Source: Candidatus Kapaibacterium sp. (GTDB lineage: Bacteria; Bacteroidota; Ignavibacteria; Kapaibacteriales; UBA4661). Taken from it: a stretch of DNA of 64,000 nt. The translations under genes were made by a program, and so were the position numbers. The stretch covers positions 86,690 to 150,689 of the forward strand of contig JALONG010000004.1 in NCBI GenBank assembly GCA_025455065.1, read 5' to 3'. Positions 4,535 to 24,269 of the stretch are shown in pieces (the first letter of the stretch is position 1; each line of letters starts with the position of its first letter). The notes under the pieces are model-generated. The model was given only the letters and a program-made list of their open reading frames with translations. It was not told where the DNA came from and did not search any database.

Positions 4535-7500
4535 TTATTGCTTCACAAAGCGTTGAACGATGCGTTTTACTCCATCATTCAATTCAATCGTGTAGTATCC
4601 AGGCGGAAGATGACCAACATGGATGTGTTGCTCAAATGCGCCGCCGTTGCTTTGTACATCCGATGTCCACACCACCGAACCAAGAGCATTGCGAAGATTT
4701 AACCGCACCAAACCTGAGGTTTGAAGCGCTGTTTGTATCGTTACGCTTGTCTGCGCCGGATTGGGGAATACCTGCGCACCATTAAACGATGGTGTGATTT
4801 CCTCTCCTGCTTTTGCGGTATGGGATTCGCCACTGGTAAGGCTGCCTTCTTTCAAGAATGCCAAAAGAGGAATAATCGTCAAATCCGTTGTGGACTCAGC
4901 GATAAGCGTGTTTGTCGGCGAGGTAACATTTTTGAATATCTTGATTTTTCCTGTTACTGCGCCTGAAGGAACGGTTGCCGTGATTGAACCGTCGCCATTA
5001 ACAACAAACGACGTAACAGCAGCGCCACCGATAGTAATAACCGATGTACCTGCAAGATAGTTACCCACAATCGTCACCGTCTGACCTTCCATGCGGCTTG
5101 TCGGGTTGAAACTCGTAATCACCGGAAGCGGATGCGGCAAATAGGTGAAGTTCACGCCCAATGCGGCATTCGTGTTTGCGCTGCCATTGGGTGTTGTTAC
5201 CACGATATTACCGGAATTGCCTGCGGCAACCGTAGCGCGAATTTGTGTAGCGGAAACAAACGTTACGCCCGATGCCGGAACACCGCCAAAGCTGACGTTT
5301 GTCGAACCCGAAACGAAGTTCGTGCCTGTAATCGTTACCACTGTGCCTGTTGTGCCAATATCGGTGGAGATGTTGGTTATGGTCGGCGGAGGCGTCGGCG
5401 GAATATACGTGAAGTTCGTGGAACTAAAGACTGTGCCGCCCGGTGCTATCACGCGGATTGGTCCTGTTGCTCCTGTTCCAACGGTAGCAATAATGGTATT
5501 ATCATTGACAACCGTATAACTTGCTGCATTGGTATTACCGAATCGCACTCCGGTAGCAACAACACCCAAAGGACCTTTTGTTCCTATAAATCCCGAACCA
5601 ATAATCGTTACCATTGTTCCCGGTCCGCCCGATGTGGCAGAAAAGCTGGTAATGGTCGGCAAAGGATGCACGGTGACAGGCGTTGTTGTTGTGCCGCCAT
5701 GTGCATACAGCGTCAATGTACCCGAAGCAGAAGCGGAAGGAATACGAACCTGCACCTGAGTTGGCGCAGCACTGATAATCTGAAGCGGTACACCGTTCAA
5801 AAGAACGCCTGTGGTTGTGCTGAGATTTGTACCGTTAATGGTCAGGGTAGAATCTTGCCGTGAAACAGGCTGTGGCGCTACGGTAGTGATTGTCGGTGCG
5901 GTTGCCGTTGCGTTGGTGGCAAAGCGGAATGTGCCGCGTGAACCGACACCGCCTGGAGTGGTAATGATGGCATTACTGTTTATTACTGTTATTCCAGCAC
6001 CAACAGTTGCCACAACTTGATTGGGACCAACACTGACAATATTCCCCAACATATTGCCAAATTTTACTTGAAACGCGCCCGTGAAGTATTGTCCGTAGAT
6101 GGTAATTGTTGCTCCCGTCGTACCATATGAAGCGTAGAAGCCTTGTATAGTCGGCGGCGGTGTGAAGGTAAACGCATTCACCTGCGTAGCGGTCTGTGTG
6201 CCACTGCGGACGACAACATTACCCAAGCCCGGTTGGGCGTTTGCTGCCGGACGAGCGATGATTTGTGTGTCGGAAACAACCGTGTAGGAAGCAGCATTCG
6301 CGCCGTTGATTTGTACGCCGTTTGTACCATAGACTTTCAAGAAGTTCGTTCCGGTGATGGTTACTGCCGTGCCTGTTGTTCCGGCAGCAGGACTTACGCC
6401 CGTGATGGTGGGTGCATCAAAGAGCAGACCCGTGCGGCGTGCTACGGCTGCATCGGTGCGGACAATCTGCACCGTGCCGTTGGTGCCGCCAGCACCGATT
6501 GTGGCTTGAATCTGGGTCGGCGAAACAACCGTGAAACTTGTCGCAGGAACGCCGCCAAACCATACGCCTTGTGTCGTGATGCCGCAGCCTGCCGTGAAGT
6601 TCGTTCCCGTGATGGTGACAAGCGTTCCGGCAGCAGTGTTTGTCGGTGTGAAGTTCGTGATAGTCGGGAGAGCAAGATACGTGAAGCCCGGAAGCGAGTG
6701 CGAACCCGAAAGCGAAGTTACCGTTACAGCGCCTGTTGCACCTGCTTTGACCGTTGCCAAAATCTGCGAATCATTCACAATCGTAAACGATGCCGGAGTG
6801 CCGCCGAATTTTACCGATGATGCACCGGAGAAGCCTGTACCGTTGATGGTTACGACCGTTCCGGTTGTTCCGCATTGCGGCGTGAAGTTAGCCACATTCG
6901 GAATCGGCGGAACATTGGAATAGACAAAACCACCAACTGTTGCTGTGCCGTCGGGCTTTGTTACCGAAACGTTTACCGGAGTGAGTGACACCGTGCCAAC
7001 GCCCAAGGTAACCACAATACGCGAATTGCTCACCGATACAATCGTTGCCGGAACGCCGCCAAAGGTTACTTGGGTTGTGCCAAGGAAGTTCGCACCACGA
7101 ATCGTTACCGTCTGCGGGCTGACACCAAAAGCAGGTGTGAAACTGTTGATAATCGGCGGTGTGGGAACGTAGGTAAAGTTCGGGCAACTCGCAGTGCCGC
7201 CCGGCGTGGTAACGGTGTATGTGCCGCTTGTGGAGCCGAAGGCAACCGTTGCGCTAATTTGTGTGGAAGAAACAACCGTAAATGCGCTTGCATTCACGCC
7301 GCCAAATCGCACCGATGTTGCACCTGTGAAGTTTGTACCGTTCAACACAACGACATTGCCACCCGTGGAAGTAAGAGCCGTGCAAGTGAGCGTGGGAGGC
7401 AAAATAGCCGGGTTCGCAAAATCAATACTCAAATTTTGCCCGTTCAAACCACCAATCACCGCCACATTACCGTTTTGCACAGCAGCATTGAGGAATGTAA

Positions 7501-9016
7501 TTTGCACATTATTCACATCGTTTGCGTTAGCATGAGCCGCTGCCGCACCTGTGAAACTGATTTGTACTTGTGTGGAAGAGGTTTTGGTTAGCACCATCGT
7601 CAAACCAGCAGGAACATTCGTCACGGTGTAGTGAGTGCCGGCCGTGAGTGTGCTGCCATTGGCTATGCTGCTTGCCCATGCTGTTCCACCAAGTGTAATT
7701 GTTTGCGTTGTGGTGATTGTACCATTATTTGCTACTGCTTCAGAGAACATCGTTCCACTGTAGTTAGCTGTGGGAGATGGCGCAGGAGTACCATTCAAAC
7801 AAGTAATTCTTTGCTGTTGATACCAATCATATGAAGTGAAACTACCACCAACAACAATTCTACCATCGGAAAGTGTTGTAAAACTACCAACATAACCGCC
7901 GTACGATTGCACACGATTGAACGTTAAATCTAAATTTCCGTTTGAGTTAAGACGTGCAACTATACCACCTTGATTATCCCCACTACGCCCACTGACCAAG
8001 ATTTTCCCATCCGATTGTACCTCCATCCATGTACGGGAAGGTCTATCTCCATTGGCGCTCATAGTCCAAGGTACAAATGATCCGTCATTTGTGCCATCGC
8101 TATTGAGACGTATGATATCTGCATTCTGGAATGCAAGAAAGCCGAAAGCTGCGCTTAAATATGAATGCCGTAAAGCGAGAATTTTACCATCAGGCTGTAC
8201 ACGAATACTGGATGTACCCAAGCTAGTCAATGGACCGTTAAATGTCGGATCAATATCTCCATTTGACAATAAACGTGTTATACTTCCTGGATGACTAGAA
8301 GTTCCACCAGGAGGAGGATTTGTAGCCAGATATAATTTGTAACTCCCGCCAACGATGATTTTACCATCAGGCTGTAAAGCAATAGAATGGATATTCGGAA
8401 GAGTATTACCAAAGCCATCATCTGAAGGATAGTTATTGCCAAAAGTATTATCAAGAGAACCGTCAGAATTGACACGTACAAGGAACTTTCTTGAATTATC
8501 ACCTCCATATCCCTGGAAACCGCCACCAATCAAAATTTTGCCATCAGCTTGGATCGCTAACGCTTGCACAGGTGTGGGACCAGCTGCTAGGGTAATACCG
8601 CTTGAAAAACTCGGATCCAACGTACCATCAGGGTTAAATCGATAAACTCCTTTTTGATCAATACCTCCATTACTAACTATGTCACCACCAACAAGTATTT
8701 TGCCGTCAGTTTGGATAGCTACCGCATAAACAACCCCTGATATGCCGACAAATTTTGTACTATCAAGTGTTCCATCTGAATTAAACCGTGCCAATACAGA
8801 CCGTTCAACATTATTATATCGAGTAAATAAGCCACCTACCACAATCTTACCGTCCGCTTGCTTGACTATACTCGTTACATCTCCGTTAAAACCTGTTACA
8901 ATGGGAAAACAAAAACCAACACTCCCATCTTGCGCCCTCGCTTGCATTAAAGGCAGCACTAAAGCTAAAGTACAAACCAGTATCCAGACAAGTTTGTTAT
9001 TCAACAAACGATTCAT
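4535..9016 (-). CDS. Giant secreted T9SS cargo protein (~1490 aa). Contains a signal peptide, an N-terminal run of beta-propeller-type repeats (DGKILVGG), about ten IPT/TIG-like Ig repeats (FTPxxGxxGTxVTIxGxNF) and a C-terminal T9SS sorting domain.
   Basis: Signal peptide MNRLLNNKLVWILVCTLALVLPLMQARAQ, chosen as start at 9016; the ORF is open to 9094. Repeats DGKI(L/I)VGG occur about 8 times. Ig-like repeats are present. The last ~80 aa (FPNPAQTSVTIQ...GYYTIELNDGVKRIVQRFVKQ) match the T9SS C-terminal-domain pattern. Confidence 0.8.
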   Translation of the reverse strand: MNRLLNNKLVWILVCTLALVLPLMQARAQDGSVGFCFPIVTGFNGDVTSIVKQADGKIVVGGLFTRYNNVERSVLARFNSDGTLDSTKFVGISGVVYAVAIQTDGKILVGGDIVSNGGIDQKGVYRFNPDGTLDPSFSSGITLAAGPTPVQALAIQADGKILIGGGFQGYGGDNSRKFLVRVNSDGSLDNTFGNNYPSDDGFGNTLPNIHSIALQPDGKIIVGGSYKLYLATNPPPGGTSSHPGSITRLLSNGDIDPTFNGPLTSLGTSSIRVQPDGKILALRHSYLSAAFGFLAFQNADIIRLNSDGTNDGSFVPWTMSANGDRPSRTWMEVQSDGKILVSGRSGDNQGGIVARLNSNGNLDLTFNRVQSYGGYVGSFTTLSDGRIVVGGSFTSYDWYQQQRITCLNGTPAPSPTANYSGTMFSEAVANNGTITTTQTITLGGTAWASSIANGSTLTAGTHYTVTNVPAGLTMVLTKTSSTQVQISFTGAAAAHANANDVNNVQITFLNAAVQNGNVAVIGGLNGQNLSIDFANPAILPPTLTCTALTSTGGNVVVLNGTNFTGATSVRFGGVNASAFTVVSSTQISATVAFGSTSGTYTVTTPGGTASCPNFTYVPTPPIINSFTPAFGVSPQTVTIRGANFLGTTQVTFGGVPATIVSVSNSRIVVTLGVGTVSLTPVNVSVTKPDGTATVGGFVYSNVPPIPNVANFTPQCGTTGTVVTINGTGFSGASSVKFGGTPASFTIVNDSQILATVKAGATGAVTVTSLSGSHSLPGFTYLALPTITNFTPTNTAAGTLVTITGTNFTAGCGITTQGVWFGGVPATSFTVVSPTQIQATIGAGGTNGTVQIVRTDAAVARRTGLLFDAPTITGVSPAAGTTGTAVTITGTNFLKVYGTNGVQINGANAASYTVVSDTQIIARPAANAQPGLGNVVVRSGTQTATQVNAFTFTPPPTIQGFYASYGTTGATITIYGQYFTGAFQVKFGNMLGNIVSVGPNQVVATVGAGITVINSNAIITTPGGVGSRGTFRFATNATATAPTITTVAPQPVSRQDSTLTINGTNLSTTTGVLLNGVPLQIISAAPTQVQVRIPSASASGTLTLYAHGGTTTTPVTVHPLPTITSFSATSGGPGTMVTIIGSGFIGTKGPLGVVATGVRFGNTNAASYTVVNDNTIIATVGTGATGPIRVIAPGGTVFSSTNFTYIPPTPPPTITNISTDIGTTGTVVTITGTNFVSGSTNVSFGGVPASGVTFVSATQIRATVAAGNSGNIVVTTPNGSANTNAALGVNFTYLPHPLPVITSFNPTSRMEGQTVTIVGNYLAGTSVITIGGAAVTSFVVNGDGSITATVPSGAVTGKIKIFKNVTSPTNTLIAESTTDLTIIPLLAFLKEGSLTSGESHTAKAGEEITPSFNGAQVFPNPAQTSVTIQTALQTSGLVRLNLRNALGSVVWTSDVQSNGGAFEQHIHVGHLPPGYYTIELNDGVKRIVQRFVKQ

Positions 9017-9387
9017 AAAAACTCCAAAAAGAATAAAAAAACTCCCCGCCACAAGCGGAGCATGATTTGTTACAACGAAAATCAGCACTGGCACAACATT
9101 TGCAACAAATTCCCCGTGTCATCGTCTTTTGGCGGACACCACGGAACATTGCAAAGCCCGTTTGCAGCATAGTACAAAGCAAAGCAGCGTACTATGCTCA
9201 CAAGCAGTGTGCGAGCAATCCGAGAAATGGAGCCTGTCAGATGATTCATTGGCGTGAGGAATCCGACGGGCTTTTTATATTTTTTACGGTGCGTGACATT
9301 GATGTCCACAGCACCTTAGCCTAACAATAATTGAACAAGTGCAAAGTTATGCTGTTCAAAACAGAAAAAAAAATTTTGGAAGCCAAA

Positions 9388-9426
9388 AAGCGCTGAGCGG
9401 GACATATAAAGCGCTGAGCGGGACAT
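9388..9426. repeat. 19-bp direct repeat x2 (aaagcgctgagcgggacat)
   Basis: Two identical copies separated by 1 nt in an A/T-rich intergenic tract. Confidence 0.6.
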
Positions 9427-9565
9427 GAGATCCCCAAAACAGGCAAAATACACCTCATTACTCTCTACAAGCATACGACAAATGCACGAGAAGATATCGC
9501 AACATTGACAGAATACTCGCAAAAACGCAAGAGCATCGCTCTCCATCCACATTTCCACAAAAGCA

Positions 9566-9614
9566 GAATGAAGAATGAAGAATGAAGAATGAAGAATGAA
9601 GAATGAAGAATGAA
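9566..9614. repeat. Heptanucleotide microsatellite (GAATGAA)x7
   Basis: Perfect tandem heptamer repeats read directly in the sequence. Confidence 0.8.
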
Positions 9615-9873
9615 CTTACCAAGGAGTTACAATATGACCATGAATGACCACGTTTAAGAGAAATAGAAGAGAAAAAATCTGCACTTCTTTTTTATGGACA
9701 GTAAAATTTAAGATTGACAAAATTCTAATGGGGACAAAACTACCTTTTTTTCTCAATACGGCAAAAACAATTTTTCCAATGCTCAATATTTTATTTTTTT
9801 AACGCACTTACGTAACAACGTACTTATGTAGCTTGAATTCACGGGTTCTGCTTTTGTGTTTTTTGTAAAAAAA

Positions 9874-11193
9874 TTATGCTGTCTGCCCCAATTCCCGCGT
9901 GAGTGCTTCGCGCTCAATTTCCAACTGGCGAATTTTTCGCTCAATCGAATCCAATTCCTCCGGCATGGAGTCAATCTCTATGCGCAGTTTCGAGGCGGAT
10001 TCGTCTATGAGGTCAATGGCTTTATCCGGCAAAAAGCGGTCAGCGATGTATCTGTGCGAAAGCTGCGCCGCAGCAATAAGGGCTGCATCCGTAATGCGCA
10101 CTCCGTGATGCACTTCGTACCGCTCTTTGATGCCGCGCAAAATCGAAATTGTGTCCTCCACTGTTGGTTCTTCGATGAGAACTTTTTGAAAACGGCGCTC
10201 CAATGCAGCATCTTTTTCGATGTATTTTTGGTATTCGTCCAGCGTTGTTGCGCCGATGCAGCGCAATTCGCCGCGTGCCAATGCGGGTTTCAGGATGTTT
10301 GCCGCATCCATGCTGCCTTGATTGGTTGCGCCTGCGCCCACGAGCGTATGCAGTTCGTCAATGAACAAAATAATTTCGCCGTCGGACTCCGAAACCTCAC
10401 GCACGACTGCTTTTAAGCGCTCTTCAAACTGTCCGCGAAAACTTGTTCCCGCAACAAGAGCGCCCATATCAAGCGCAATAATCGTCTTGGTTTTGAGCGT
10501 TTCCGGAACATCGCCCGAAACGATGCGCTGCGCAATGCCTTCAGCAATAGCGGTTTTACCAACGCCCGGCTCACCGATTAACACGGGATTATTCTTCGTG
10601 CGGCGCGAAAGCACTTGCAAGACGCGCCGAATCTCGTCTTCGCGCCCGATAATCGGGTCAATTTTGCCTTTGCGAGCATCGTCATTAAGTGAACGTCCGT
10701 AGCGCTTCAGTGCTTGATATTTGTCTTCGGGATTTTGGTCGGTAACGCGCTGCGAACCGCGAAAATCCTTGAGAATTTTCACCACCGCATCTTTGGTAAC
10801 GCCTTGGTCGCGTAAAAGCTGTGCTGCTGGGGATTTGTGTTCGGCAAGCGCCATAAGCAGATGCTCGGTGCTGACGTATTCATCGTGGAGTTGCTGTGCT
10901 TCTTTGAGCGCTATTTCCAGCACCGCACCCAAATCACGGCTTAAAAACTGGCTTCCCACAACCGTTCCGCTTACTTTGGGCAGCGCGTCTATTTCCTGTT
11001 GCGCTTTGGATTTCAAATAATCCACATTCGCACCAAGTTTGAGCAGCATCGGCGGAATAATTCCACCCGAATCTTCCAGCAAAACCAGCATCAAATGGAC
11101 TGCTTCGATAGATTGGTGATTATTCGCCGAGGCAATTTCCTGTGCGCGTTGCAGTGCTTCCTGCGCTTTGAGCGTGAGTTTTTGAAAATTCAT
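9874..11193 (-). CDS. clpB: ClpB-type AAA+ disaggregase, N-terminal fragment only (N-domain, NBD1 and start of the M-domain coiled coil, 439 aa). The gene appears truncated and is a possible pseudogene.
   Basis: Clp N-domain repeats; Walker A GEPGVGKT; Walker B ILFIDELH. Ends in coiled coil ...[27 protein letters not shown] then stop. No NBD2 follows; an A/T-rich repeat tract replaces it. Confidence 0.85.
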
Positions 11194-16249: not shown

Positions 16250-17662
16250 TTATTTCACACCACCCATCATCCTGCGAATATGCGGCGTGAGCAAGGCAAG
16301 AATCAGCGCAGCAAGCATCATCACGGCAGATAATACGCCGAAATACTGTACCAAAAATTCCGTATTTCGTTCATCGAAAAAGCCCGCTAAATAGCCTGCA
16401 ATGCGACTAGCAACGGCACTCGCCAAAAACCACACGCCCATCATCATCCCCACAAGCCTCACCGGTGCGAGTTTTGTTACAACACTCAGCCCCGTCGGGT
16501 TCAGCAGCACCGCACCAATTTCCTGCAAGAAAAATGCACCCAAAAGCCAGAACGGGCTTACTTCCCCGTGCCGTGCAGCCAAGGAAGCCGCAACCATGAC
16601 GCTGAACGCCAAACCGACAAAGAGCAGACTGAGCGCAAATTTCGTCGGTGAGGAAGGCTGCCGCTCCCCCAAGCTAATCCAGAGGCGCGACAGCAAAGGT
16701 GCAAGAATGATGACGTAAATCGGAATCACCGATTGAAACCAACTCGACGGAAATTCCCACGAGCCAATAGTGGTACGGGTTAGGCGGTCTGCAAAGAGAT
16801 TCATGCTGGAACCTGCCTGCTCGGAAACAATACCGAACAGCACCGTAAAGACGAACAAAATACCAATCACGCCCACACGCTGCCATTCTTCCCGGCTGAG
16901 GGCTGGGAGCGATAGCGATTGTTTCTGCATTGGGGCGTGTTTACGTTCACCAACGGCTTGAAAACGGTCTTGCGACGCGAGAAACTGCCACAGCCCAATC
17001 ATCATGCCCACTGCGGCTGCACCAAATCCCCAATGCCACGAATGAAGCGGGTTCAATCCCCAAACAAGCAGCAGTTCTTTGAAGAGCGGATGTTGCGCTA
17101 AAAATCCGCAGACAATAGGCGCACACGCCGCACCAACATTGATGCCCATAAAAAACAGCGAAAACCCCGCATCACGCCTTTCGTCGCCGTCGGGGTAGAG
17201 TTCCCCGACCATCGCACTGATGCTGGGTTTGAGCAAACCCGTTCCAAGCGTGATACACGCCAAACCCGCATAGAACCAGAGTATTTGCGTACTTGCGGCA
17301 ACAAGCGCAATCAAAAAATGTCCCAGCGCAATGATTCCGCCTCCGGCTATAACTGCCCGCCGTGCGCCGAGCCACCTGTCCGCAACAAAGCCCCCCGGCA
17401 GCGCCAAAAGATACACCCACATCGTATAAGTGCCGTAAATTGCCGTTGCAGTTTTTACATCCAGCGCCAAACCGCCTTCGGTGAGCGGTGCAACCATGTA
17501 GAGAATGAGAATTGCCCTCATTCCGTAATAGCTGAAGCGCTCCCACAGTTCGGTAAAAAACAGCGTCGTCAGCCCACGTGGATGCCCACCGATACCGCTT
17601 ACGTCGCTTGCAGTGTCGGTTTGATGTGGATTTGGTGCTGTGTTGTGGTGTGAAAACGCCAT
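16250..17662 (-). CDS. POT/PTR2-family proton-dependent di-/tripeptide transporter
   Basis: Motif ELWERFSYYGMRAILILYM plus 12-TM-like hydrophobicity. Start set to the internal Met (MAFSHH) at 17662, because the ORF's upstream extension overlaps the divergent gene. Confidence 0.8.
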   Translation of the reverse strand: MAFSHHNTAPNPHQTDTASDVSGIGGHPRGLTTLFFTELWERFSYYGMRAILILYMVAPLTEGGLALDVKTATAIYGTYTMWVYLLALPGGFVADRWLGARRAVIAGGGIIALGHFLIALVAASTQILWFYAGLACITLGTGLLKPSISAMVGELYPDGDERRDAGFSLFFMGINVGAACAPIVCGFLAQHPLFKELLLVWGLNPLHSWHWGFGAAAVGMMIGLWQFLASQDRFQAVGERKHAPMQKQSLSLPALSREEWQRVGVIGILFVFTVLFGIVSEQAGSSMNLFADRLTRTTIGSWEFPSSWFQSVIPIYVIILAPLLSRLWISLGERQPSSPTKFALSLLFVGLAFSVMVAASLAARHGEVSPFWLLGAFFLQEIGAVLLNPTGLSVVTKLAPVRLVGMMMGVWFLASAVASRIAGYLAGFFDERNTEFLVQYFGVLSAVMMLAALILALLTPHIRRMMGGVK

Positions 17663-17741
17663 ACTTGGTGCGTTCTTTCGTGCTTGCGGAAAAAAAGTAT
17701 TTTGCAAAGCACAAACATACCAAGATATTTGTGGAACGCCA

Positions 17742-18521
17742 ATGGGAAAACGATGGCGAATATTGCGACCAATCACAAACATTATGAATCTATATTTTTT
17801 ACCCTTTGCCGCATCGTTGCTGCTTTTTTTGCCGAAAGCACTCAATGCGCAAAATGATAACCCGCATTGGCGCATTGCGAGTACGTTTCTCCAAAACCGA
17901 AGACAAACCAATGACCCCACAAGAATAGCACTCGGCAGCGTACTCAATTTTTACGGCTATAACGACCTCCAGCCCCAATTTGAAAAAGATTTTTCTTCCA
18001 TTCCGAACCGTTATCAAACGGGCGAAAACTATGATAACTTTGTTGCCGACATGACGAACTGGACACTCCTTCCCATCTACTGGGGCGGTACGGCGTGGTC
18101 AACGGCGGTGTCGGTGGTCAGTTTTATAGGGGGTGATATTCTCGGCGGCATCTGGCACGCCTTCGGCGCGGTGCAGTGGTCACGTGGGGCAACATACCTG
18201 ACGTGGACAGCGAAACACGACTGGAATAAGCTCATAGGCGCACAGCGTACGGTACAAAAGCAAGTCTTTGTCATCCGCACCCAGTTCAATTTCCCATGGG
18301 TTTTTGCGGGCAACGTACTGCTGGATGTCGTTGAAGATACTGACGGCGATGGACTCTTTGGGGAGGAGGCGCAGAAATATAGAGGAACTAACTCTATTGG
18401 TTTATACGAAGCCGAAGGTATGAGCCATAATGTGTCCTCGAATCATCCAAAATCCAAACAGCAGTTTGAGAGAGCGTTTGATAACCCGAATATCCCATTT
18501 TACGCACCCAAAAGGAGATAA
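17742..18521 (+). CDS. Secreted hypothetical protein carrying a glycine-rich hydrophobic module (first gene of a four-gene cassette)
   Basis: Signal-peptide-like N-terminus (MGKRWRILRPITNIMNLYFLPFAASLLLFLPKALNAQ); the alternative start is 17784. Hydrophobic segment MTNWTLLPIYWGGTAWSTAVSVVSFIGGDILGGIWHAFGAVQW. No family recognised. Confidence 0.5.
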   Translation: MGKRWRILRPITNIMNLYFLPFAASLLLFLPKALNAQNDNPHWRIASTFLQNRRQTNDPTRIALGSVLNFYGYNDLQPQFEKDFSSIPNRYQTGENYDNFVADMTNWTLLPIYWGGTAWSTAVSVVSFIGGDILGGIWHAFGAVQWSRGATYLTWTAKHDWNKLIGAQRTVQKQVFVIRTQFNFPWVFAGNVLLDVVEDTDGDGLFGEEAQKYRGTNSIGLYEAEGMSHNVSSNHPKSKQQFERAFDNPNIPFYAPKRR

Positions 18522-18524
18522 TTT

Positions 18525-19718
18525 ATGAAACGCCTAATTCTTCGACTGTATTTCTTCTGTCTGTGCATTGCAAGCCTGAATGCTTCTGCTTGCGACCCTT
18601 TAACAAGTTCCAGAGAACAATTTCTTTGGAAACAATCACTTTCTGACGGAAAACTTATCGAAGGTGAGTTGCCTAATATTCTGTATAATGGCACTATTAT
18701 TTCACTAGGTATGAGTGGTGGTAAACGAACACTCTATGCTTTTGATGCAAGTAGTGGAGAACCTCGCTGGCGATGGTCAGATTGGTTTTTGAGTGATAGA
18801 AGCATTTTAGTGGATTATGTGCATACTTTTGATAACGTGCTTGTTATTTGTAACAGAGGACCGAATTATGGCATTGATACTCGTACAGGAAAAACAATCT
18901 GGAGCAATGACATAAAGAATAGAGAATCAGGCTCACAGGGAGCAAGCGGAATAGGACAATTATATTTTTTTGGTACTTATATTTCCGTGACAGAAAATTA
19001 TCTGATGCAAGGCAATATATACCGAGATGATGAGAGAGTTCTTGTTTCCTTACCTCGCGGAACAGGCGCAAAACACTCAACACCGTTTGTAGCCCAAAAC
19101 GGCGATACAATGCTGGTCTATTTCTCCACCTACGGAGAACCAGCAACAAATTTTCGGAACAGAACCTACATCAGTCTCTACAATGTCAGTAAACGCCAAG
19201 AAATCTATACTCTTCTTCAAGACACAAGTTCACCCGAAAATGCCAATGTTCTTACTGGCGGCGTTCCTTTAATCCGTAACAAAACTATTTATAGTGCTAT
19301 TGGGCGCAGTGTTCAAGCTAATGATATCGAAACAGGAAAACTCCTTTGGAGGACAAAAACGGAGTGGGATTTTAACGTCTCTGGTATAATTGAAGCTGAT
19401 GGAATAATTATTGGGAATAACCCAGATGGGTTTCTTCATGCTTTTGAAAGTCAAACAGGGAAATTATTATGGAGAGTTAAGGCTTCTGGAACTTCACGCA
19501 GACCTTTTTATATGAATGGTGTCGTTTACATCGTTGGTGTTGGGGATGGAAAATTATATGCGTTTGATGCAAAAACAGGCGATAAAATTTGGGCTTTTGA
19601 TTCTCCTGACGATAACGGTCGTTCTGGGTCTTCGTTTGATGGTATCGTTACAGGTGCGAACGGCAAAATCTATGCCCGCTCGTTTCTCAACCTCTACTGT
19701 TACAGAGCAGCACGATGA
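18525..19718 (+). CDS. Secreted PQQ-repeat-like (BamB-like) beta-propeller protein, possible lipoprotein
   Basis: Signal sequence with ...LNASAC. Repeated L(Y/H)AFDAxTGxxxW motifs (LYAFDASSGEPRWRW, GKLLWRTK, GKLLWRVK, LYAFDAKTGDKIWAF). Lies 4 bp after the upstream gene. Confidence 0.6.
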   Translation: MKRLILRLYFFCLCIASLNASACDPLTSSREQFLWKQSLSDGKLIEGELPNILYNGTIISLGMSGGKRTLYAFDASSGEPRWRWSDWFLSDRSILVDYVHTFDNVLVICNRGPNYGIDTRTGKTIWSNDIKNRESGSQGASGIGQLYFFGTYISVTENYLMQGNIYRDDERVLVSLPRGTGAKHSTPFVAQNGDTMLVYFSTYGEPATNFRNRTYISLYNVSKRQEIYTLLQDTSSPENANVLTGGVPLIRNKTIYSAIGRSVQANDIETGKLLWRTKTEWDFNVSGIIEADGIIIGNNPDGFLHAFESQTGKLLWRVKASGTSRRPFYMNGVVYIVGVGDGKLYAFDAKTGDKIWAFDSPDDNGRSGSSFDGIVTGANGKIYARSFLNLYCYRAAR

Positions 19719-19915
19719 GCAGAAGCATACATATTGCCGGCATGACGAACTGGACACTCCTCCCCGCCTTCTGGGGCGCGACGGCGTGGTCAACGGCGGT
19801 GTCGGTGGTAAACTTTGTGGGCGGTAATGTGGTGGGCGGGCTGTGGCACGCTTTCGGTGCTGTGCAGTGGTCACGCGATGAATTACTGGAAATGGCGCAA
19901 TCGCTGATTCGATAA
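19715..19915 (+). CDS. 66-aa orphan paralog of the glycine-rich hydrophobic module
   Basis: MTNWTLLPAFWGATAWSTAVSVVNFVGGNVVGGLWHAFGAVQWSRD aligns with 36 of 46 residues identical to residues of the 17742 gene. The start overlaps the upstream stop (ATGA). Confidence 0.4.
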   Translation: MSRSIHIAGMTNWTLLPAFWGATAWSTAVSVVNFVGGNVVGGLWHAFGAVQWSRDELLEMAQSLIR

Positions 19916-19948
19916 TTATTTATTCAATCACTATTTGGGAGTACAGTT

Positions 19949-20707
19949 ATGCGTGAAATCTTCGGCATCATCGTTCTCATGCTGCTTGGCGGCGTTGCAT
20001 GGATTCTTATTCACGGTTTTGGCACGGTTGCGCCGTTGGATTGGATTATTGCGCTTTTGACGCTGCTGTGGCTCATCGGCATTGTTACCGTGCCTTGGAA
20101 TATCTATTTTCAAACACGGGCAATTTTGGTCGAAGCCGAAGAATCGAAAAAGCGCGATATTTCGGTCGAAGAGGACAAAATCACCTACGCAAAACGTTGG
20201 TCGGAACGCGCGTTGGTACTGGCGTTGGTGCTGCATTTGGCTACGGCGCTGGGAATGTATTTTTTAGCGGCGTTTGGTGTGAGTTTTATCGGGTATTTCG
20301 GCGCGGGAGCGGCGCTTATGCTGACGTTTGTGCGCCCTATTGTGCGTGGGTATGAGTATGTGCGTAAGCGCCTCGCCACAATTCGGGAAGAAATCACTTA
20401 TCCACGTGAGGATGTTGTTTCGCTGAAAGCGCAGGTAGAAGATATGAAAGCGACGCTCGAAATGCTCGAAAAGCGTTTGGATGCAAGCGATTCCGATTCG
20501 TGGGCAGCAAAACAAGAACAGAATATGGAAGCGCTCCGCACTAAACTTGATTTGATGCGGCACAGAATAGACGATGCCCTCGAAACCAATAAACTCGACC
20601 ACGAGAAAATTTCCCGCGATGCGCAAAACGCAATGGCGCAAGCAATGGCGGATGCGGCGATTGTGAATCACGTCCGAGAGATTGTGCGCTTTTTCAAAGA
20701 AGCGTGA
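19949..20707 (+). CDS. Membrane protein with four predicted TM helices and a C-terminal coiled-coil domain
   Basis: N-terminal hydrophobic helices followed by a heptad-like E/K/L-rich C-terminal ~110 aa. Last gene of the cassette. Confidence 0.5.
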   Translation: MREIFGIIVLMLLGGVAWILIHGFGTVAPLDWIIALLTLLWLIGIVTVPWNIYFQTRAILVEAEESKKRDISVEEDKITYAKRWSERALVLALVLHLATALGMYFLAAFGVSFIGYFGAGAALMLTFVRPIVRGYEYVRKRLATIREEITYPREDVVSLKAQVEDMKATLEMLEKRLDASDSDSWAAKQEQNMEALRTKLDLMRHRIDDALETNKLDHEKISRDAQNAMAQAMADAAIVNHVREIVRFFKEA

Positions 20708-21192
20708 TTCTATCGCCGAAGTGGATAGTTTACAGTATTTGAGTTCGTAGGTTTTGGGCGCAGATTTTCATGATTGAACAGATTACACAGAGTTTAAGCG
20801 GCTTTGAGGCTTGTTGTTGAGTATTTGCAAATGGCGTGAATCCAAGTGGTTTGTCGTTGAAAAATCATGACAATCTGTTGAATCATAAGAATCTGCGTCA
20901 AAGTTATTACCCAATCATCAAGGGTAAATTTTGTCTTCAAAGCGTGAAAGGTTGTACAACGTTGGGAGAAGTTGTAAATTGCAATTCTTTGTCCGAACAC
21001 AAAGTAAAGAACGCGGATTTTGAGGATAAAGAGGATAGCAAGGATGAAGAAGAGTAATGATGCGGTTTAAAAGCAATGTTGTCTAACCAATCCTCTGCAT
21101 CTTCCAAATCCTCACAATCCGCGTTCTCCCACACAAAACCTCAGCACATACTTCCAACCACGACCAAAAGAAACCATCACATTCCTTTCACC

Positions 21193-22998
21193 ATGAATCA
21201 CTTCCGCAATTTTTGTATTATCGCCCACATTGACCACGGAAAATCCACGCTTGCAGACCGTTTGCTGGAGCATACCGGCACACTGCAAAAGCGCGAGATG
21301 ACGATGAATCAGATGCTCGACAGTAACCCGCTTGAGCAAGAGCGCGGCATCACGATTAAACTGCACGCAATTCAGATGCGCTATACATCTCGTGCCAAAG
21401 AAGATTATATCCTGAACCTCATTGATACTCCCGGACACGTTGATTTTTCTTACGAAGTCTCGCGCTCACTTGCTGCCTGCGAAGGCGCTTTGCTCGTGGT
21501 GGATGCTACCCAAGGCGTAGAAGCGCAAACTATTAGTAACCTCTATTTGGCTATTGACGCGGGTTTGGAGATTATTCCCGTCATCAACAAAATTGACCTT
21601 CCCAGCGCTGTAACGACGATTGATTCGGTAAAGCAGCAGGTAATGGATTTGATTGGTTGCAAAGAAGAAGACATGGTGCTTGCTTCAGGCAAGACGGGGA
21701 TTGGGATTGAGGATATTTTGGAGGCAGTGGTAGCGCGTATTCCTGCACCCAAAGGAGACCCCGCAGCACCGCTCCGTGCGCTGATTTACGATTCGCACTT
21801 CGACCCCTATTTGGGCGTTGTCGTGAATGCTCGTGTGATTGACGGAACGCTCCGCGAGAAGGACAAAATCTACTTCTACGCAACCGACAAAACCTACGAA
21901 GTGGAAGAATGTGGTTATATGAAAATGAACCGCGTCCGCACAGGCGAAATCGGTGCCGGCAACGTAGGCTACATCACCGCAAGTATCAAAAACCTCCATG
22001 ATACGCGAGTCGGCGACACTATCACTCATGCCGACAACAAAGGCGAGCGTATTTCGGGCTTCAAAGAAGTGAAACCGATGGTTTTTAGCGGGATTTACCC
22101 CGCCGACAGCGATGATTTCGAGGATTTACGCGAAGCACTGCAAAAATTGTCGTTGAACGATTCGGCGATTACGTTTGAACCCGAAAGTTCCGTTGCGCTG
22201 GGATTCGGCTTCCGATGCGGCTTCCTGGGGCTTTTGCATATGGAAATCGTGCAAGAGCGTTTGGAACGGGAGTTTGCGCAAACGATTGTGACGACCGTTC
22301 CGACGGTGCGCTACCGATTGGAACTCACCAATGGCGAAGAATCGTGGATTGAATCGCCGGCACAAATGCCCGAAAATGTCAGTTCGATTAACGAAATTTA
22401 CGAACCCTTCATCAAAGCACAGATTATCACGCCTGCGGAGTATATCGGTGTGATAATGAAACTTTGCATGGACAGGCGCGGTATATTTTTGGCAACGAAT
22501 TATTTGACCGAAACCCGCGTCGAAATGCTCTTTGAACTGCCCTTGTCAGAAGTGATTTTTGACTTTTTCGACAAGCTCAAATCCGGCACACGCGGCTATG
22601 CGTCGCTTGATTACGAGCCGATAGATATGCGCCCGGGCGACCTTATTAAACTCGACATTCTTCTCAACGGAGAGCCTGTTGATGCGCTTTCCAGCATTGT
22701 TCACCGCCAAAAAGCATACGATTGGGGGCGGAAACTCTGCAGCAAACTGAAAGAACTTATCCCGCGTCAGATGTTTGAAGTGGCTATCCAAGCCGCAATC
22801 GGCGCGAAAATCATCGCCCGCGACAACATCAGCGCCATTCGCAAAAACGTTCTTGCGAAGTGCTACGGCGGCGATATTTCCCGCAAGCGCAAACTTTTGG
22901 ACAAGCAAAAAGAAGGCAAAAAACGGATGAAGCAAATCGGGCGCGTGGAAGTGCCGCAAGAGGCATTCCTCGCGGTCTTGAGCATTGATGATGATTAG
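21193..22998 (+). CDS. lepA: Elongation factor 4 (LepA)
   Basis: [32 protein letters not shown] GTPase motifs and the LepA C-terminal region. Start set at MNHFRNF (21193). Confidence 0.95.
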
Positions 22999-23115
22999 AC
23001 GCTTCTGAATCTTCTTGATGAAAGCGCCGTAATAGGACATAGCACAAGAGGCATTTAGCGAGTAGCATAGGCATTTTTACCTGTGCGAAACAGCCTACAA
23101 ATGTTACCAAATCTC

Positions 23116-23137
23116 GCACAGACAGGAATGTCTGTGC
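23116..23137. repeat. Palindromic repeat core gcacagacaggaatgtctgtgc (dispersed family member)
   Basis: Perfect 9-bp arms with a 4-nt spacer and the shared flanks ctcGCACAGACA...TGTCTGTGCcactga. Located in the lepA-lepB intergenic region. Confidence 0.7.
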
Positions 23138-23264
23138 CACTGATTGTCAAACTTACCATTTTGTGTTCGAGCCAATTCTCATACAAACAAAGGTATCGTA
23201 ATTCCGAACCATTACTTTTGAGACTTTTCCAAGCACTCAACCTTCTTTACTCATCATTTCAATT

Positions 23265-24269
23265 ATGGCAAAATCCCTCGACCAAATCCGCGCTGAAGCC
23301 AAGCGTGATGCCGACCGCAAGAAAAACGGCAAAGCTAAAGGTAAAACCGGAGCTATTGACCTCAAAAAAACTTCGCAGCCCGCTTCGCAAAACGGCTCTG
23401 AAGGAGAATTCCCCCAGACCTTCGGTGAAATCGCGCTTTCGTGGACACGCACGATTGTCGGTGCGTTTTTGATGGTGATGATTCTGAACGGTGTTCTCGT
23501 CGCATCGTTTGTTGTTCCGACCGGTTCTATGGAAGGCACGGTCATGACAGGCGATTTCCTTTTCGTGAACAAGTTCCTTTACGGTCCTTCTACGCCGCAG
23601 ATGATTCCGATTTTCAATATCCCGCTTCCGTATTACCGTTTTCCGGGTGTGCGCAAGCCGGAAAAAGGCGATGTGATTGTGTTTATTTTTCCCGGAAACC
23701 GCGATGAAGCCAAGCCGCAGGAGTTTCAGTATTACCTGAAGCGCTGCGTGGCAACAGCAGGCGACACTTTGACCATTCGCAATAAACAAATCTTCATCAA
23801 CGGCGCGGCACAGCCACTGCCGCAGGACGGGCGTTTGAGCAATTTTATCGCCTCACCCGAATCCGACGACCGCTATCACACCTTCCCGATTGGTGCGGGC
23901 TTCACACGCGACAACTACGGTCCGATTCGTATTCCCAAGCAGGGCGATGTTGTCGAACTTACGCCGATGAATTTAGCGCAATGGGAAATTTTCATCCGCC
24001 GCGAAGGGCATGAAATCACGACGAATGACGGTAAAATTTTGATAGATGGCAAAGAAACAACCCAATACACCGTAAAGCGCGATTATTGCTTCGGCATGGG
24101 CGACAACCGCGATAACAGCTTGGACAGCCGCTATTGGGGATTTGTTCCGGTGGATGATGTCGTCGGAACGCCGCTTGTGGTCTATTGGTCGTGGGAAACA
24201 AATCTGCCGAGCATTTTCGAGAAATTTGCCACGATTCGCTTTAATCGTTTTGGTAAGTTGATTCAGTAA
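23265..24269 (+). CDS. lepB: Signal peptidase I
   Basis: TM anchor, catalytic Ser context PTGSMEGT, and GDNRDNSLDSRYWGFVP box. Immediately downstream of lepA as in many bacteria. Confidence 0.9.
   Translation: MAKSLDQIRAEAKRDADRKKNGKAKGKTGAIDLKKTSQPASQNGSEGEFPQTFGEIALSWTRTIVGAFLMVMILNGVLVASFVVPTGSMEGTVMTGDFLFVNKFLYGPSTPQMIPIFNIPLPYYRFPGVRKPEKGDVIVFIFPGNRDEAKPQEFQYYLKRCVATAGDTLTIRNKQIFINGAAQPLPQDGRLSNFIASPESDDRYHTFPIGAGFTRDNYGPIRIPKQGDVVELTPMNLAQWEIFIRREGHEITTNDGKILIDGKETTQYTVKRDYCFGMGDNRDNSLDSRYWGFVPVDDVVGTPLVVYWSWETNLPSIFEKFATIRFNRFGKLIQ

What the first reader, a model, noticed from the sequence alone, without database searches (positions are those of the whole stretch)
17742..20707. Compact four-gene cassette of uncharacterized secreted/membrane proteins (candidate novel envelope or toxin-immunity-like system)
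Four same-strand genes are packed with 4-bp, overlapping (ATGA) and 34-bp junctions. (1) A signal-peptide protein whose only striking feature is a glycine-rich, Trp/Ala-rich hydrophobic module (possible TM hairpin or glycine zipper). (2) A PQQ/BamB-like beta-propeller protein with a lipoprotein-like signal. (3) A 66-aa ORF that is essentially just a second copy of the hydrophobic module. (4) A 4-TM protein with a long cytoplasmic coiled coil. None matches a family I can name. A full-length gene followed by a truncated paralogous module and a polytopic membrane protein recalls polymorphic-toxin/orphan-module/immunity loci and bacteriocin-plus-immunity operons. It could equally be an outer-membrane assembly complex. 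The cassette sits divergently next to a peptide transporter gene and is not part of a housekeeping operon.
Basis: partly seen in the sequence, partly recalled or inferred. Interest (0 to 1): 0.7.

Follow-up and report, generated by a model that had tools for sequence, protein, structure and literature searches.

The report
Beheaded lipase gene with propeller partner
The "four-gene cassette" is a 2.2-kb insert holding two catalytically dead fragments of a lipase-like enzyme gene around an intact beta-propeller lipoprotein gene, probably a leftover toxin/antidote-type pair, and the fourth gene is an unrelated resident membrane protein.

Summary
The four tightly packed genes and the shared hydrophobic module are real. 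They are not one cassette.

- **Gene 4 (19949-20707)** belongs to a large conserved family (over 1,050 homologues in Kapaibacteria and cyanobacteria). It sits at the same spot, between the PTR2 transporter and lepA, in relatives that lack genes 1-3.
- **Genes 1-3 (about 17766-19948)** are an insert in a variable slot.
- **Genes 1 and 3** are not a new family. They are 5'-truncated pieces of a rare Sec-exported, lipase-like alpha/beta-hydrolase of about 410-435 aa. Gene 1 keeps the Asp and His motifs and the cap hairpin, which is the "hydrophobic module". It lacks the whole GHSxGG nucleophile half.
- **Gene 2** is the partner of that hydrolase. In four independent full-length loci, one on a Fibrella plasmid, the hydrolase is immediately followed by a gene-2-type PQQ beta-propeller lipoprotein. 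One locus reads hydrolase-propeller-fragment-propeller-fragment-propeller.
- **The window's clade** (about nine loci) holds only fragments alternating with intact propellers. Divergence between strains is mosaic, which indicates recombination.

Best reading (inferred, about 0.5): a hydrolase/inhibitor pair of the effector-immunity type that has been reduced to an orphan propeller plus effector remnants. The pair itself appears undescribed. This locus is a degenerate copy of it.

The parts
17766..19948 (+). Inserted block (g1-g2-g3) in a variable slot between the PTR2 transporter gene and g4
   Evidence: DNA homology to relative L007 runs through PTR2 up to 17765 and resumes inside g4 at 20039 (19976 for L010). 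The same slot holds a Peptidase_S41 gene in L007 and an acyl-CoA dehydrogenase gene in L010. GC is 44.6% against a window mean of 48.7%, in the lowest 4% of equal-sized windows.
17742..18521 (+). g1: 5'-truncated, nucleophile-less lipase-like alpha/beta-hydrolase gene (259 aa from 17742, 244 aa from 17787) with a chimeric signal-peptide-like N-terminus
   Evidence: It aligns only to the C-terminal ~200 aa of 407-561-aa hydrolases that carry GHSxGG. It keeps Asp ('DGDGLF', D203) and His ('GMSHN', H229). There is no Pfam, NCBIfam or PDB hit on its own. dN/dS against L030 is 0.18.
18043..18184 (+). Hydrophobic Gly/Trp/Ala-rich module of g1, corresponding to the helical hairpin of the hydrolase cap
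   Evidence: It aligns to the helix-helix hairpin (residues 251-315) of the P0158 model and to the hydrophobic equivalent 'WTNYAAAAVAGAFTFGLGAIPLVYVAIQWNKG' in the full-length Fibrella hydrolase.
18525..19718 (+). g2: PQQ_2-type beta-propeller lipoprotein, cognate partner of the hydrolase and the only intact, clearly constrained component
   Evidence: Pfam PQQ_2 E 5e-24. It is homologous over its full length to the propellers that directly follow full-length hydrolases in L032-L035 (E 1e-17 to 6e-41). All have a Cys-terminated signal peptide, and the propellers in L032-L034 also share the C-terminal [YF]CY motif; the Fibrella propeller (L035) ends in YGY instead. Its only hit among 72,556 plasmids is the Fibrella hydrolase-linked propeller. 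dN/dS against L030 is 0.12.
19715..19915 (+). g3: remnant of a second hydrolase fragment, with the module only and the C-terminal domain deleted
   Evidence: ATGA overlap with g2. In L014 and L015 the same position holds a 165-aa module + C-domain gene. In the 93%-identical strain L030 it is truncated at a different point, equivalent to window 19805, so it is not conserved.
19734..19875 (+). Second copy of the module, inside g3
   Evidence: 142 nt at 83% identity to 18043-18184.
19949..20707 (+). g4: resident 4-TM + coiled-coil membrane protein of a large uncharacterised family. A neighbour, not part of the system
   Evidence: Over 1,050 homologues, about 255 aa, in Kapaibacteria and cyanobacteria, with no Pfam domain. 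There are 45 invariant columns among 16 diverse members. It holds the same position next to lepA or PTR2 in L007-L010, which lack g1-g3. No PDB relative.

Best explanation
SHOWN: Positions ~17766-19948 are an insert that carries a degenerate copy of a two-gene module. In its intact form the module consists of a Sec-exported, lipase-like Ser-Asp-His alpha/beta-hydrolase (~410-435 aa, with a protruding helical hairpin and a long beta-hairpin inserted before the Asp/His strands), directly followed by a PQQ-type beta-propeller lipoprotein, often with overlapping stop/start codons. In the window the hydrolase gene is beheaded. g1 starts just after the strand that precedes 'PHWRIAS' and lacks the oxyanion HG and the GHSxGG nucleophile. 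g3 is a still smaller piece of a second copy. The propeller g2 is intact. g4 is an unrelated resident gene. INFERRED: the propeller binds and neutralises the hydrolase in the periplasm, as an immunity or inhibitor lipoprotein against a membrane-active lipase. Tandem duplication of '3' hydrolase piece + propeller' units, followed by recombination, produces the alternating arrays. In this genome the toxin is dead and the propeller is kept as an orphan immunity gene against related hydrolases made by competitors. g1 and g3 are effector remnants. They may still be translated, or they may serve as recombination substrates.
For: Homology of g1 to the C-terminal part of the hydrolases: the profile search found only 28 hits in 1.84e9 proteins. 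The long ones are GHSxGG hydrolases that match Pfam PGAP1/Abhydrolase_6. Asp, His and a second His are invariant across both groups. The AF2 model of full-length P0158 (pLDDT 69) gives an alpha/beta core plus hairpins, and Foldseek hits lipases and MenH. The N-terminal half matches BioH and family-I lipases in the PDB. No nucleophile half occurs anywhere in the 64 kb. Pairing: the hydrolase is followed by a g2-type propeller in L032, L033, L034 and on Fibrella plasmid CP155473.1 next to traK/M/N. Among plasmids, g2 hits only that propeller. Array architecture: L033 reads hydrolase-propeller-83aa fragment-propeller-83aa fragment-propeller. The window clade has fragment/propeller alternation in L002, L006, L013, L014, L015, L030 and L031. 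Asymmetry: every hydrolase copy in the clade is truncated or frameshifted. The propellers are intact in all loci but L006 and are under purifying selection (omega 0.10-0.32). That fits an orphan-immunity role and is hard to fit with a pure foldase or anchor role. Accessory character: both families are very rare (6 and 18 hits in 5.8e9 proteins), sit in different genomic contexts, and are plasmid-borne in Fibrella. Recombination: window/L030 divergence is mosaic, with 3 differences in 900 nt next to tracts 15-31% divergent, against a 5% flank. g4 independence.
Against: No activity, toxicity or binding has been tested for any member, so the immunity reading rests on architecture alone. The full-length hydrolases carry Sec signal peptides and have no T6SS, T7SS, CDI or T9SS-CTD delivery features, so no delivery route to a competitor is evident. 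No secretion-system genes flank them, and the window has none. Two full-length loci have a conserved third gene, an upstream ~285-aa lipoprotein (E 3e-11), which would also fit an envelope enzyme complex. No full-length hydrolase of the g1 clade (>50% identical) exists in the databases searched, so the presumed attacker is unsampled. The catalytically dead fragments show dN/dS of 0.07-0.25, and even the 83-aa fragments of L033 show 0.23. Plain remnants should not be this constrained, unless the tracts are imported from functional genes. The AF2 model of g1 alone is poor (pLDDT 41).
Confidence: 0.5

Rival explanations
1. Non-conflict enzyme complex. The hydrolase is an envelope lipid or lipoprotein-remodelling esterase. 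The propeller, and the upstream lipoprotein of L032 and L034, anchor, chaperone or regulate it. The window copy is a decaying relic with no current role.
For: There is a conserved three-gene order, lipoprotein-hydrolase-propeller, in L032 and L034, with homologous upstream lipoproteins. The hydrolase has a Sec signal. There is no secretion-system context. The operon layout resembles lipase-foldase (LipA-Lif) operons, and the N-terminal half resembles family-I lipases.
Against: The propeller stays intact and constrained where the enzyme is dead. Propellers are amplified to 3 per hydrolase, with interleaved fragments, in L033. The distribution is extremely patchy and rare, and one copy is plasmid-borne. 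Mosaic recombination tracts are present.
Confidence: 0.25
2. Neofunctionalised pair. The Ser-less g1 protein, with a new signal peptide, a hydrophobic hairpin, a beta-hairpin and the Asp/His strands, has acquired a non-catalytic function of its own, for example as a membrane-inserting or propeller-binding factor. It works with g2 as a novel envelope module.
For: dN/dS is 0.07-0.25 across g1-like genes, including window against L030, which share the same truncated form. The same 'DNPHW' truncation point is found in a different genomic context in L006. D203, H229 and H235 remain invariant. The g1-g2 junction is tight, with an internal AGGAG.
Against: Truncation points differ widely among loci (259, 229, 165, 151, 135, 109 and 66 aa, plus frameshifted copies). 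The N-terminus is not conserved. Window/L030 differences sit in recombination tracts, so omega may reflect selection in the donor genes. A fragment with only the last two core strands cannot form the alpha/beta fold. The AF2 model is poor.
Confidence: 0.15
3. One reading: a four-gene operon in which g1 or g3 are toxins or bacteriocins and the polytopic g4 is the immunity protein.
For: All four genes are on the same strand, with a 33-nt gap and no terminator-like site between g3 and g4, so co-transcription is possible.
Against: g4 is conserved with PTR2 and lepA in genomes that lack g1-g3. It has over 1,050 homologues, against 6 for g1. g1-g2 units in L002, L030 and L014 are not followed by g4.
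Confidence: 0.03
4. g2 is the organism's BamB, and the cassette is part of outer-membrane protein assembly.
For: PQQ_2 fold, lipoprotein signal, and PDB hits to BamB at E 1e-14 to 1e-16.
Against: The BamB equivalog models fall far below their cut-offs (72.7 against 285.2, and 44.4 against 423). Close homologues exist in only about ten loci, always with hydrolase pieces. GC3 is atypical at 0.31.
Confidence: 0.02

Closest known systems
T6SS lipase effector / immunity pairs (Tle1-4 with Tli lipoproteins; my own knowledge of Russell et al. 2013, and bioRxiv 10.1101/2023.03.28.534661 read here)
   Same: A GxSxG alpha/beta-hydrolase is encoded next to a periplasmic lipoprotein partner. The partner genes are often amplified in tandem. 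Orphan partner genes persist without the enzyme.
   Different: The hydrolases here carry Sec signal peptides, and no T6SS genes or PAAR/VgrG/Hcp neighbours are present. The partner is a PQQ beta-propeller, whereas the Tli in the paper read is an ankyrin-repeat protein. There is no sequence-family match to any Tle in Pfam. Function is untested.
Orphan toxin-fragment / immunity arrays of polymorphic toxin systems (CdiA-CT/CdiI, Rhs; Zhang et al. 2012, PMC3482391)
   Same: 5'-truncated toxin pieces alternate with intact downstream partner genes. There is evidence of recombination. One array is headed by a full-length gene (L033).
   Different: The fragments are parts of the catalytic domain itself (cap + Asp/His strands), not complete alternative toxin domains. 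There is no N-terminal trafficking domain or repeat region. Zhang et al. state that beta-propellers had not been found among immunity proteins.
Family I.1/I.2 lipase with lipase-specific foldase (LipA-Lif/LipB)
   Same: A secreted lipase gene is followed directly by a dedicated periplasmic, membrane-tethered partner gene. The N-terminal half of the hydrolase resembles these lipases.
   Different: Lif is an all-helical steric chaperone needed for activity. Here the partner is a propeller lipoprotein that is retained and amplified where the enzyme is dead.
BamB / PQQ_2 beta-propeller lipoproteins
   Same: The fold, the lipoprotein signal and the size (about 390 aa) of g2.
   Different: g2 falls below the BamB equivalog thresholds, is rare and patchy, and is always linked to the hydrolase.
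PefD/PefE of Proteus mirabilis (as cited in bioRxiv 10.1101/2023.03.28.534661)
   Same: A predicted beta-propeller protein serves as the immunity partner of an antibacterial effector.
   Different: PefD is a PAAR T6SS effector, not a lipase-like hydrolase. No homology was tested here.

Membership tests
alpha/beta-hydrolase (lipase-like, PGAP1/Abhydrolase_6 type), applied to g1 and g3 | Nucleophile elbow G-x-S-x-G after strand beta5, and the oxyanion HG motif | tested here: not met
   g1 aligns only from the strand before 'PHWRIAS' onward. GHSxGG and 'WxHG' are present in P0136, P0140, P0144, P0147, P0158 and the Fibrella protein, but absent from g1 and g3 and from the whole window.
alpha/beta-hydrolase (lipase-like, PGAP1/Abhydrolase_6 type), applied to g1 and g3 | Catalytic Asp loop and His loop in the C-terminal strands (xSDGxV...GxxH...P) | tested here: met
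   g1 D203 ('DGDGLF') and H229 ('GMSHN') fall in invariant columns of alignment A3. g3 lacks this part.
alpha/beta-hydrolase (lipase-like, PGAP1/Abhydrolase_6 type), applied to g1 and g3 | Significant match to a curated family model | tested here: not met
   g1 and g3 have no Pfam or NCBIfam hit at E<=1. The full-length relatives do hit PGAP1/Abhydrolase_6, some above the gathering score. g1 is therefore a homologous fragment, not a member enzyme.
PQQ_2 beta-propeller lipoprotein, applied to g2 | Pfam PQQ_2 above the gathering score, and a signal peptide ending in Cys | tested here: met
   85.6 bits against 27.6. '..CIASLNASAC|D', with a Cys at the same place in all orthologues and in the hydrolase-linked propellers. 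The lipobox was judged by eye only.
BamB (TIGR03300 / NF008351 equivalogs), applied to g2 | Score above the NCBIfam equivalog cut-off | tested here: not met
   72.7 against 285.2 bits, and 44.4 against 423 bits.
Effector-immunity pair / polymorphic-toxin-like locus | Toxin gene immediately followed by a conserved cognate partner gene | tested here: met
   Hydrolase followed by propeller in L032, L033, L034 and L035. Fragment followed by propeller in about nine loci of the window clade.
Effector-immunity pair / polymorphic-toxin-like locus | Arrays of 5'-truncated toxin pieces, each with a partner gene, and signs of recombination | tested here: met
   L033 array. L013 and L031. Mosaic window/L030 divergence.
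Effector-immunity pair / polymorphic-toxin-like locus | Delivery determinant (T6SS/T5SS/T7SS/T9SS domain or neighbouring secretion genes) | tested here: not met
   Only Sec-type signal peptides are present. No extra N- or C-terminal domains. No secretion-system genes in the window or in the L032-L034 neighbourhoods.
Effector-immunity pair / polymorphic-toxin-like locus | Toxicity of the enzyme and specific neutralisation by the partner | not testable with these tools
   Requires expression and binding experiments.
   g4 occurs without g1-g3 in L007-L012, and g1-g2 occur without g4 in L002, L014 and L030.

The most novel reading that the evidence does not exclude
The lipoprotein-hydrolase-propeller module is a previously undescribed, Sec-dependent antibacterial lipase toxin / beta-propeller-immunity family of Bacteroidota and Kapaibacteria. 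Its '3' hydrolase cassette + immunity' units are shuffled by recombination. This would explain the mosaic tracts, the GC3-rich cassettes and the purifying selection on catalytically dead fragments, and the window's locus would be an orphan-immunity island of that system.
Probability: 0.3. Interest if true: 0.7.

Novelty: new variant of a known kind. Interest (0 to 1): 0.45.

Why it matters
If the inference holds, this would be a toxin/immunity-type pair built from parts not yet linked in the literature I could search: a Sec-exported lipase-like hydrolase with a hydrophobic hairpin, and a PQQ beta-propeller lipoprotein as its neutraliser. It occurs in poorly studied lineages (Kapaibacteria, Cytophagales). 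Its cassette-like fragments stay under selection although they cannot be enzymes. A cultured host with a complete copy exists (Fibrella sp. ES10-3-2-2 plasmid), so the idea can be tested directly. The result is also a caution for this window: tight packing on one strand made an insert plus a resident gene look like a four-gene operon, and a 'novel hydrophobic module' is the cap of a beheaded enzyme.

Tried and rejected
- **Family searches.** PADLOC defence models gave nothing relevant. A PDB sequence search with the g1 profile gave no hit.
- **AF2 of g1.** With a 7-sequence alignment, pLDDT was 41, which is unusable except for the secondary-structure order.
- **The search for related loci.** The genome-contig scan with A5 picked the generic motif [IF]LIGHS[LM]GG and returned only unrelated alpha/beta-hydrolases, L016-L029. 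A local tblastn confirmed no C-terminal match and no propeller linkage, so that scan was wasted.
- **Metagenome scan with the g2 alignment.** This added only two loci.
- **g1 against plasmids.** No match.
- **Missing nucleophile half.** I looked for it elsewhere in the window and found none.
- **Upstream lipoprotein of L032 and L034.** I looked for a homologue in the window and found none.
- **g4.** No Pfam, NCBIfam or PDB relative beyond coiled-coil noise.
- **Promoter/terminator scan.** Not informative, with counts near the shuffled expectation.
- **Literature searches.** No paper links a PQQ/BamB-like propeller to a lipase effector.
- **Rejected ideas.** g2 as BamB, on thresholds and distribution. 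g1 and g3 as glycine-zipper bacteriocins, because they are homologous to a hydrolase cap. g4 as an immunity protein, on synteny.


Full report
**Observation.** The four + strand ORFs exist as described: g1 17742/17787-18521, g2 18525-19718, g3 19715-19915, g4 19949-20707.
- The junctions are TAA, 3 nt, ATG; an ATGA overlap; and 33 nt.
- The g1/g3 module is a real paralogous repeat. It spans 48 aa at 77% identity (E 1e-13) and 142 nt at 83% identity.
- g2 is a PQQ_2 beta-propeller (85.6 bits against 27.6) with a Cys-terminated signal peptide.
- g4 has two pairs of hydrophobic segments and a coiled-coil-like tail.
- The divergent neighbour is a PTR2/POT transporter.
- The surrounding window is ordinary chromosome: rpoC, rsmB, lepA, lepB, prfC, ribBA, dnaJ, grpE, cmk, rnr, ksgA. 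By the g4 hits it comes from a member of Candidatus Kapaibacteriota.

**g4 is not part of the unit.**
- g4 has over 1,050 homologues of about 255 aa in Kapaibacteria and many cyanobacteria, at 41-69% identity with 45 invariant columns.
- In relatives L007-L009 (81% identity) and L010 (69%) the order is PTR2(-) | X | g4, and lepA follows g4 in L007-L009 (in L010 a TPR/guanylate-cyclase gene follows). X is a Peptidase_S41 gene in L007 and an acyl-CoA dehydrogenase gene in L010.
- DNA homology to L007 runs through PTR2 to 17765 and resumes inside g4. The insert is therefore g1-g3 only, about 2.2 kb, at 44.6% GC against 48.7% for the window.
- g1-g2 units elsewhere are not followed by g4 (L002, L014, L030).

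**g1-g2-g3 is a recurrent unit.**
- g1 has only 6 relatives among 5.8e9 clustered proteins. g2 has only a handful of close relatives.
- Wherever flanks are visible, g1-like ORFs and g2-like propellers alternate:
  - L002: truncated g1, propeller, then a frameshifted g1-like remnant.
  - L006: a 229-aa g1-like gene, then a frameshifted propeller.
  - L013 and L031: a 135-aa fragment, a propeller, then a 109-aa fragment.
  - L014 and L015: a propeller end '..YLNLYCYKAAR*' overlapping by ATGA with a 165-aa gene that begins at the module.
  - L030: a 93%-identical strain with g1 and g2, and g3 cut at a different point.

**What g1 and g3 are.**
- A profile of the g1 family, searched against 1.84e9 representative proteins, found 28 hits. 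The close ones are all short.
- The long ones (P0136, P0140, P0142, P0144, P0147, P0150) are signal-peptide proteins with 'WIHG', 'LIGHSMGG', 'SDGLVP' and 'GVSHxExxNHP'. They match Pfam PGAP1/Abhydrolase_6.
- g1 aligns only with their C-terminal ~200 residues. It keeps Asp203, His229 and His235 in invariant columns but has no nucleophile half. No such half is encoded elsewhere in the window.
A long beta-hairpin follows, then the Asp and His strands. Foldseek and PDB sequence hits are generic hydrolases, lipases, BioH and MenH.
- The best full-length comparator is on Fibrella sp. ES10-3-2-2 plasmid CP155473.1. It has 'NEESPVHWRIAS' (g1: 'NDNPHWRIAS') and a similarly hydrophobic hairpin.
- g1 is therefore a beheaded lipase-like hydrolase gene. 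g3 is a smaller remnant of a second copy.

**g2 is the hydrolase's partner.** In L032, L033, L034 and the Fibrella plasmid, the full-length hydrolase is immediately followed by a ~400-aa propeller.
- That propeller is homologous to g2 over its full length (E 1e-17 to 6e-41). All four have a Cys-terminated signal peptide, and those in L032-L034 share the C-terminal [YF]CY motif; the Fibrella propeller ends in YGY.
- Among 72,556 plasmids, g2 hits only the Fibrella propeller.
- L033 reads hydrolase-propeller-83aa-propeller-83aa-propeller. The 83-aa ORFs are the Asp/His end of the hydrolase.
- L032 and L034 also share an upstream ~285-aa lipoprotein, which the window lacks.

**Evolutionary behaviour.**
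- Propellers are under purifying selection (omega 0.10-0.32; window against L030, 0.12).
- The dead fragments unexpectedly are too: 0.07-0.25 for g1-like genes, and 0.23 between the two L033 fragments.
- However, window/L030 divergence is mosaic. The PTR2 flank differs by about 5%. Positions 18270-19170 differ at 3 of 900 nt. Positions 17970-18270 differ by about 15%, and 19230-19830 by about 21%. Some tracts are closer to L002. Recombination therefore imports tracts, and omega may reflect selection in the donor genes.
- g3 is not conserved between the two strains, so it is a remnant.
- Propellers are AT-rich at third codon positions (0.29-0.39) and fragments are GC-rich (0.45-0.69) in every locus of the clade. 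This is unexplained.

**Mechanism.**
- Shown: the anatomy, the homology, the pairing, the arrays, the mosaicism and the independence of g4.
- Inferred: the propeller lipoprotein binds and neutralises the exported hydrolase. Here the enzyme is dead and the propeller persists as an orphan immunity gene.
- The main argument is the asymmetry. The hydrolase is always truncated and the propeller is intact in all loci but L006 and constrained. Added to this are propeller amplification, rarity and patchiness, plasmid carriage, and recombination.
- Against the inference: there is no delivery determinant and there are no functional data. A conserved third lipoprotein exists. No attacker of the g1 clade has been sampled. 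The selection on fragments is unexplained.

**Comparison with known systems.** The locus resembles Tle/Tli lipase-immunity pairs and orphan toxin/immunity arrays in layout. It resembles LipA-Lif operons in gene order. It is a member of none of these. It has no T6SS context, the partner fold is different, and it shows no family match.
- Zhang et al. 2012 noted that beta-propellers had not been seen among immunity proteins. A predicted example, PefE, is cited.
- I found no paper describing this pairing.

**Verdict.** The locus is a degenerate copy of a rare, apparently undescribed hydrolase/propeller module placed next to an unrelated resident gene. Interest is moderate at 0.45. The module is worth testing in Fibrella, while the window's own copy is a relic.

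Noticed in passing
window 18525-19718 versus 17787-18521 and 19715-19915; also L002, L006, L013, L014, L015, L030, L031, L033: There is a sharp, conserved contrast in third-position GC. Propeller genes have GC3 of 0.29-0.39 (g2 0.31). The adjacent hydrolase fragments have 0.45-0.69 (g1 0.53, g3 0.67). Host genes are about 0.53-0.59. In L033 the 83-aa fragments are also more GC3-rich than both the full hydrolase and the propellers. GC-biased gene conversion in recombining cassettes is one possibility.
   Followed up: partly
window 16710-19830 versus L030 1-3110: Divergence between two strains is mosaic. The PTR2 flank differs by 5%. Positions 18270-19170 show 3 differences in 900 nt. The module region and the 3' third of g2 plus g3 differ by 15-31%. 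The C-terminus of g2 in L030 is of the L002 type. This indicates recent exchange plus imported tracts.
   Followed up: partly
L030 901-1045 and 3080-3213; window 17631-17649, 18162-18180, 19853-19871: In strain L030 the g1-g2-g3' block is flanked by a ~140-bp direct repeat (81.5% identity) of the PTR2-upstream region, and an unrelated ORF follows instead of g4. A 19-nt similarity between that region and the end of the module ('GGTGCTGTG..TGGT') may have mediated the junction.
   Followed up: partly
window 17691-17737: A 47-bp element upstream of PTR2 ('..gtattttgcaaagcacaaacataccaagatatttgtgg..') is 85% conserved in L010 and also in L007, and is duplicated in L030. It has TTTG ... TATTTG spacing reminiscent of Bacteroidota-type promoters. 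g1's first ATG (17742) lies at its edge.
   Followed up: partly
window 19949-20707: g4 represents a large, strongly conserved membrane-protein family with no Pfam, NCBIfam or PDB relative. Motifs include TVPWNIYF, YPREDV and HVREIIRFFK. It is shared by Kapaibacteria and cyanobacteria at 41-44% identity.
   Followed up: partly
window 17663-19948 compared with L007 5534-8000 and L010 6172-8000: The slot between PTR2 and g4 is a replacement hot spot. It holds g1-g3 here, a 795-aa Peptidase_S41 gene in L007 and a 561-aa acyl-CoA dehydrogenase gene in L010.
   Followed up: yes
L007 10764-11424 compared with window 22998-23265: Relative L007 carries a nucleotidyltransferase/HepT toxin-antitoxin pair between lepA and lepB that is absent from the window.
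   Followed up: no
window 9094-11193 (- strand): A ClpB/ClpA-like gene stops after 439 aa (Clp_N + first AAA + lid). About 780 nt of AT-rich, ORF-poor DNA follows (GC 0.41 in 8-10 kb) before the next gene. This may be a truncated chaperone gene or an assembly or rearrangement scar.
   Followed up: partly
window 4535-9094 (- strand): A 1,519-aa protein with DUF5122 propeller repeats, seven TIG domains and a Por_Secre_tail sorting domain. The organism therefore has type IX secretion cargo.
   Followed up: no
window 21008-21045 and 21090-21127: A 38-nt inverted repeat (76% complementary) straddles the annotated start region of lepA. The listed lepA ORF has a long non-conserved N-terminal extension, and the real start is probably near 21193.
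   Followed up: no
L032 7131-7973, L034 7099-7965, L035 6179-6937: Full-length hydrolase loci have a conserved upstream gene. In L032 and L034 it is a ~285-aa lipoprotein (E 3e-11 between the two). A 252-aa ORF sits in the same place in Fibrella, with no BLAST similarity detected. It has no Pfam match and is absent from the window.
   Followed up: partly
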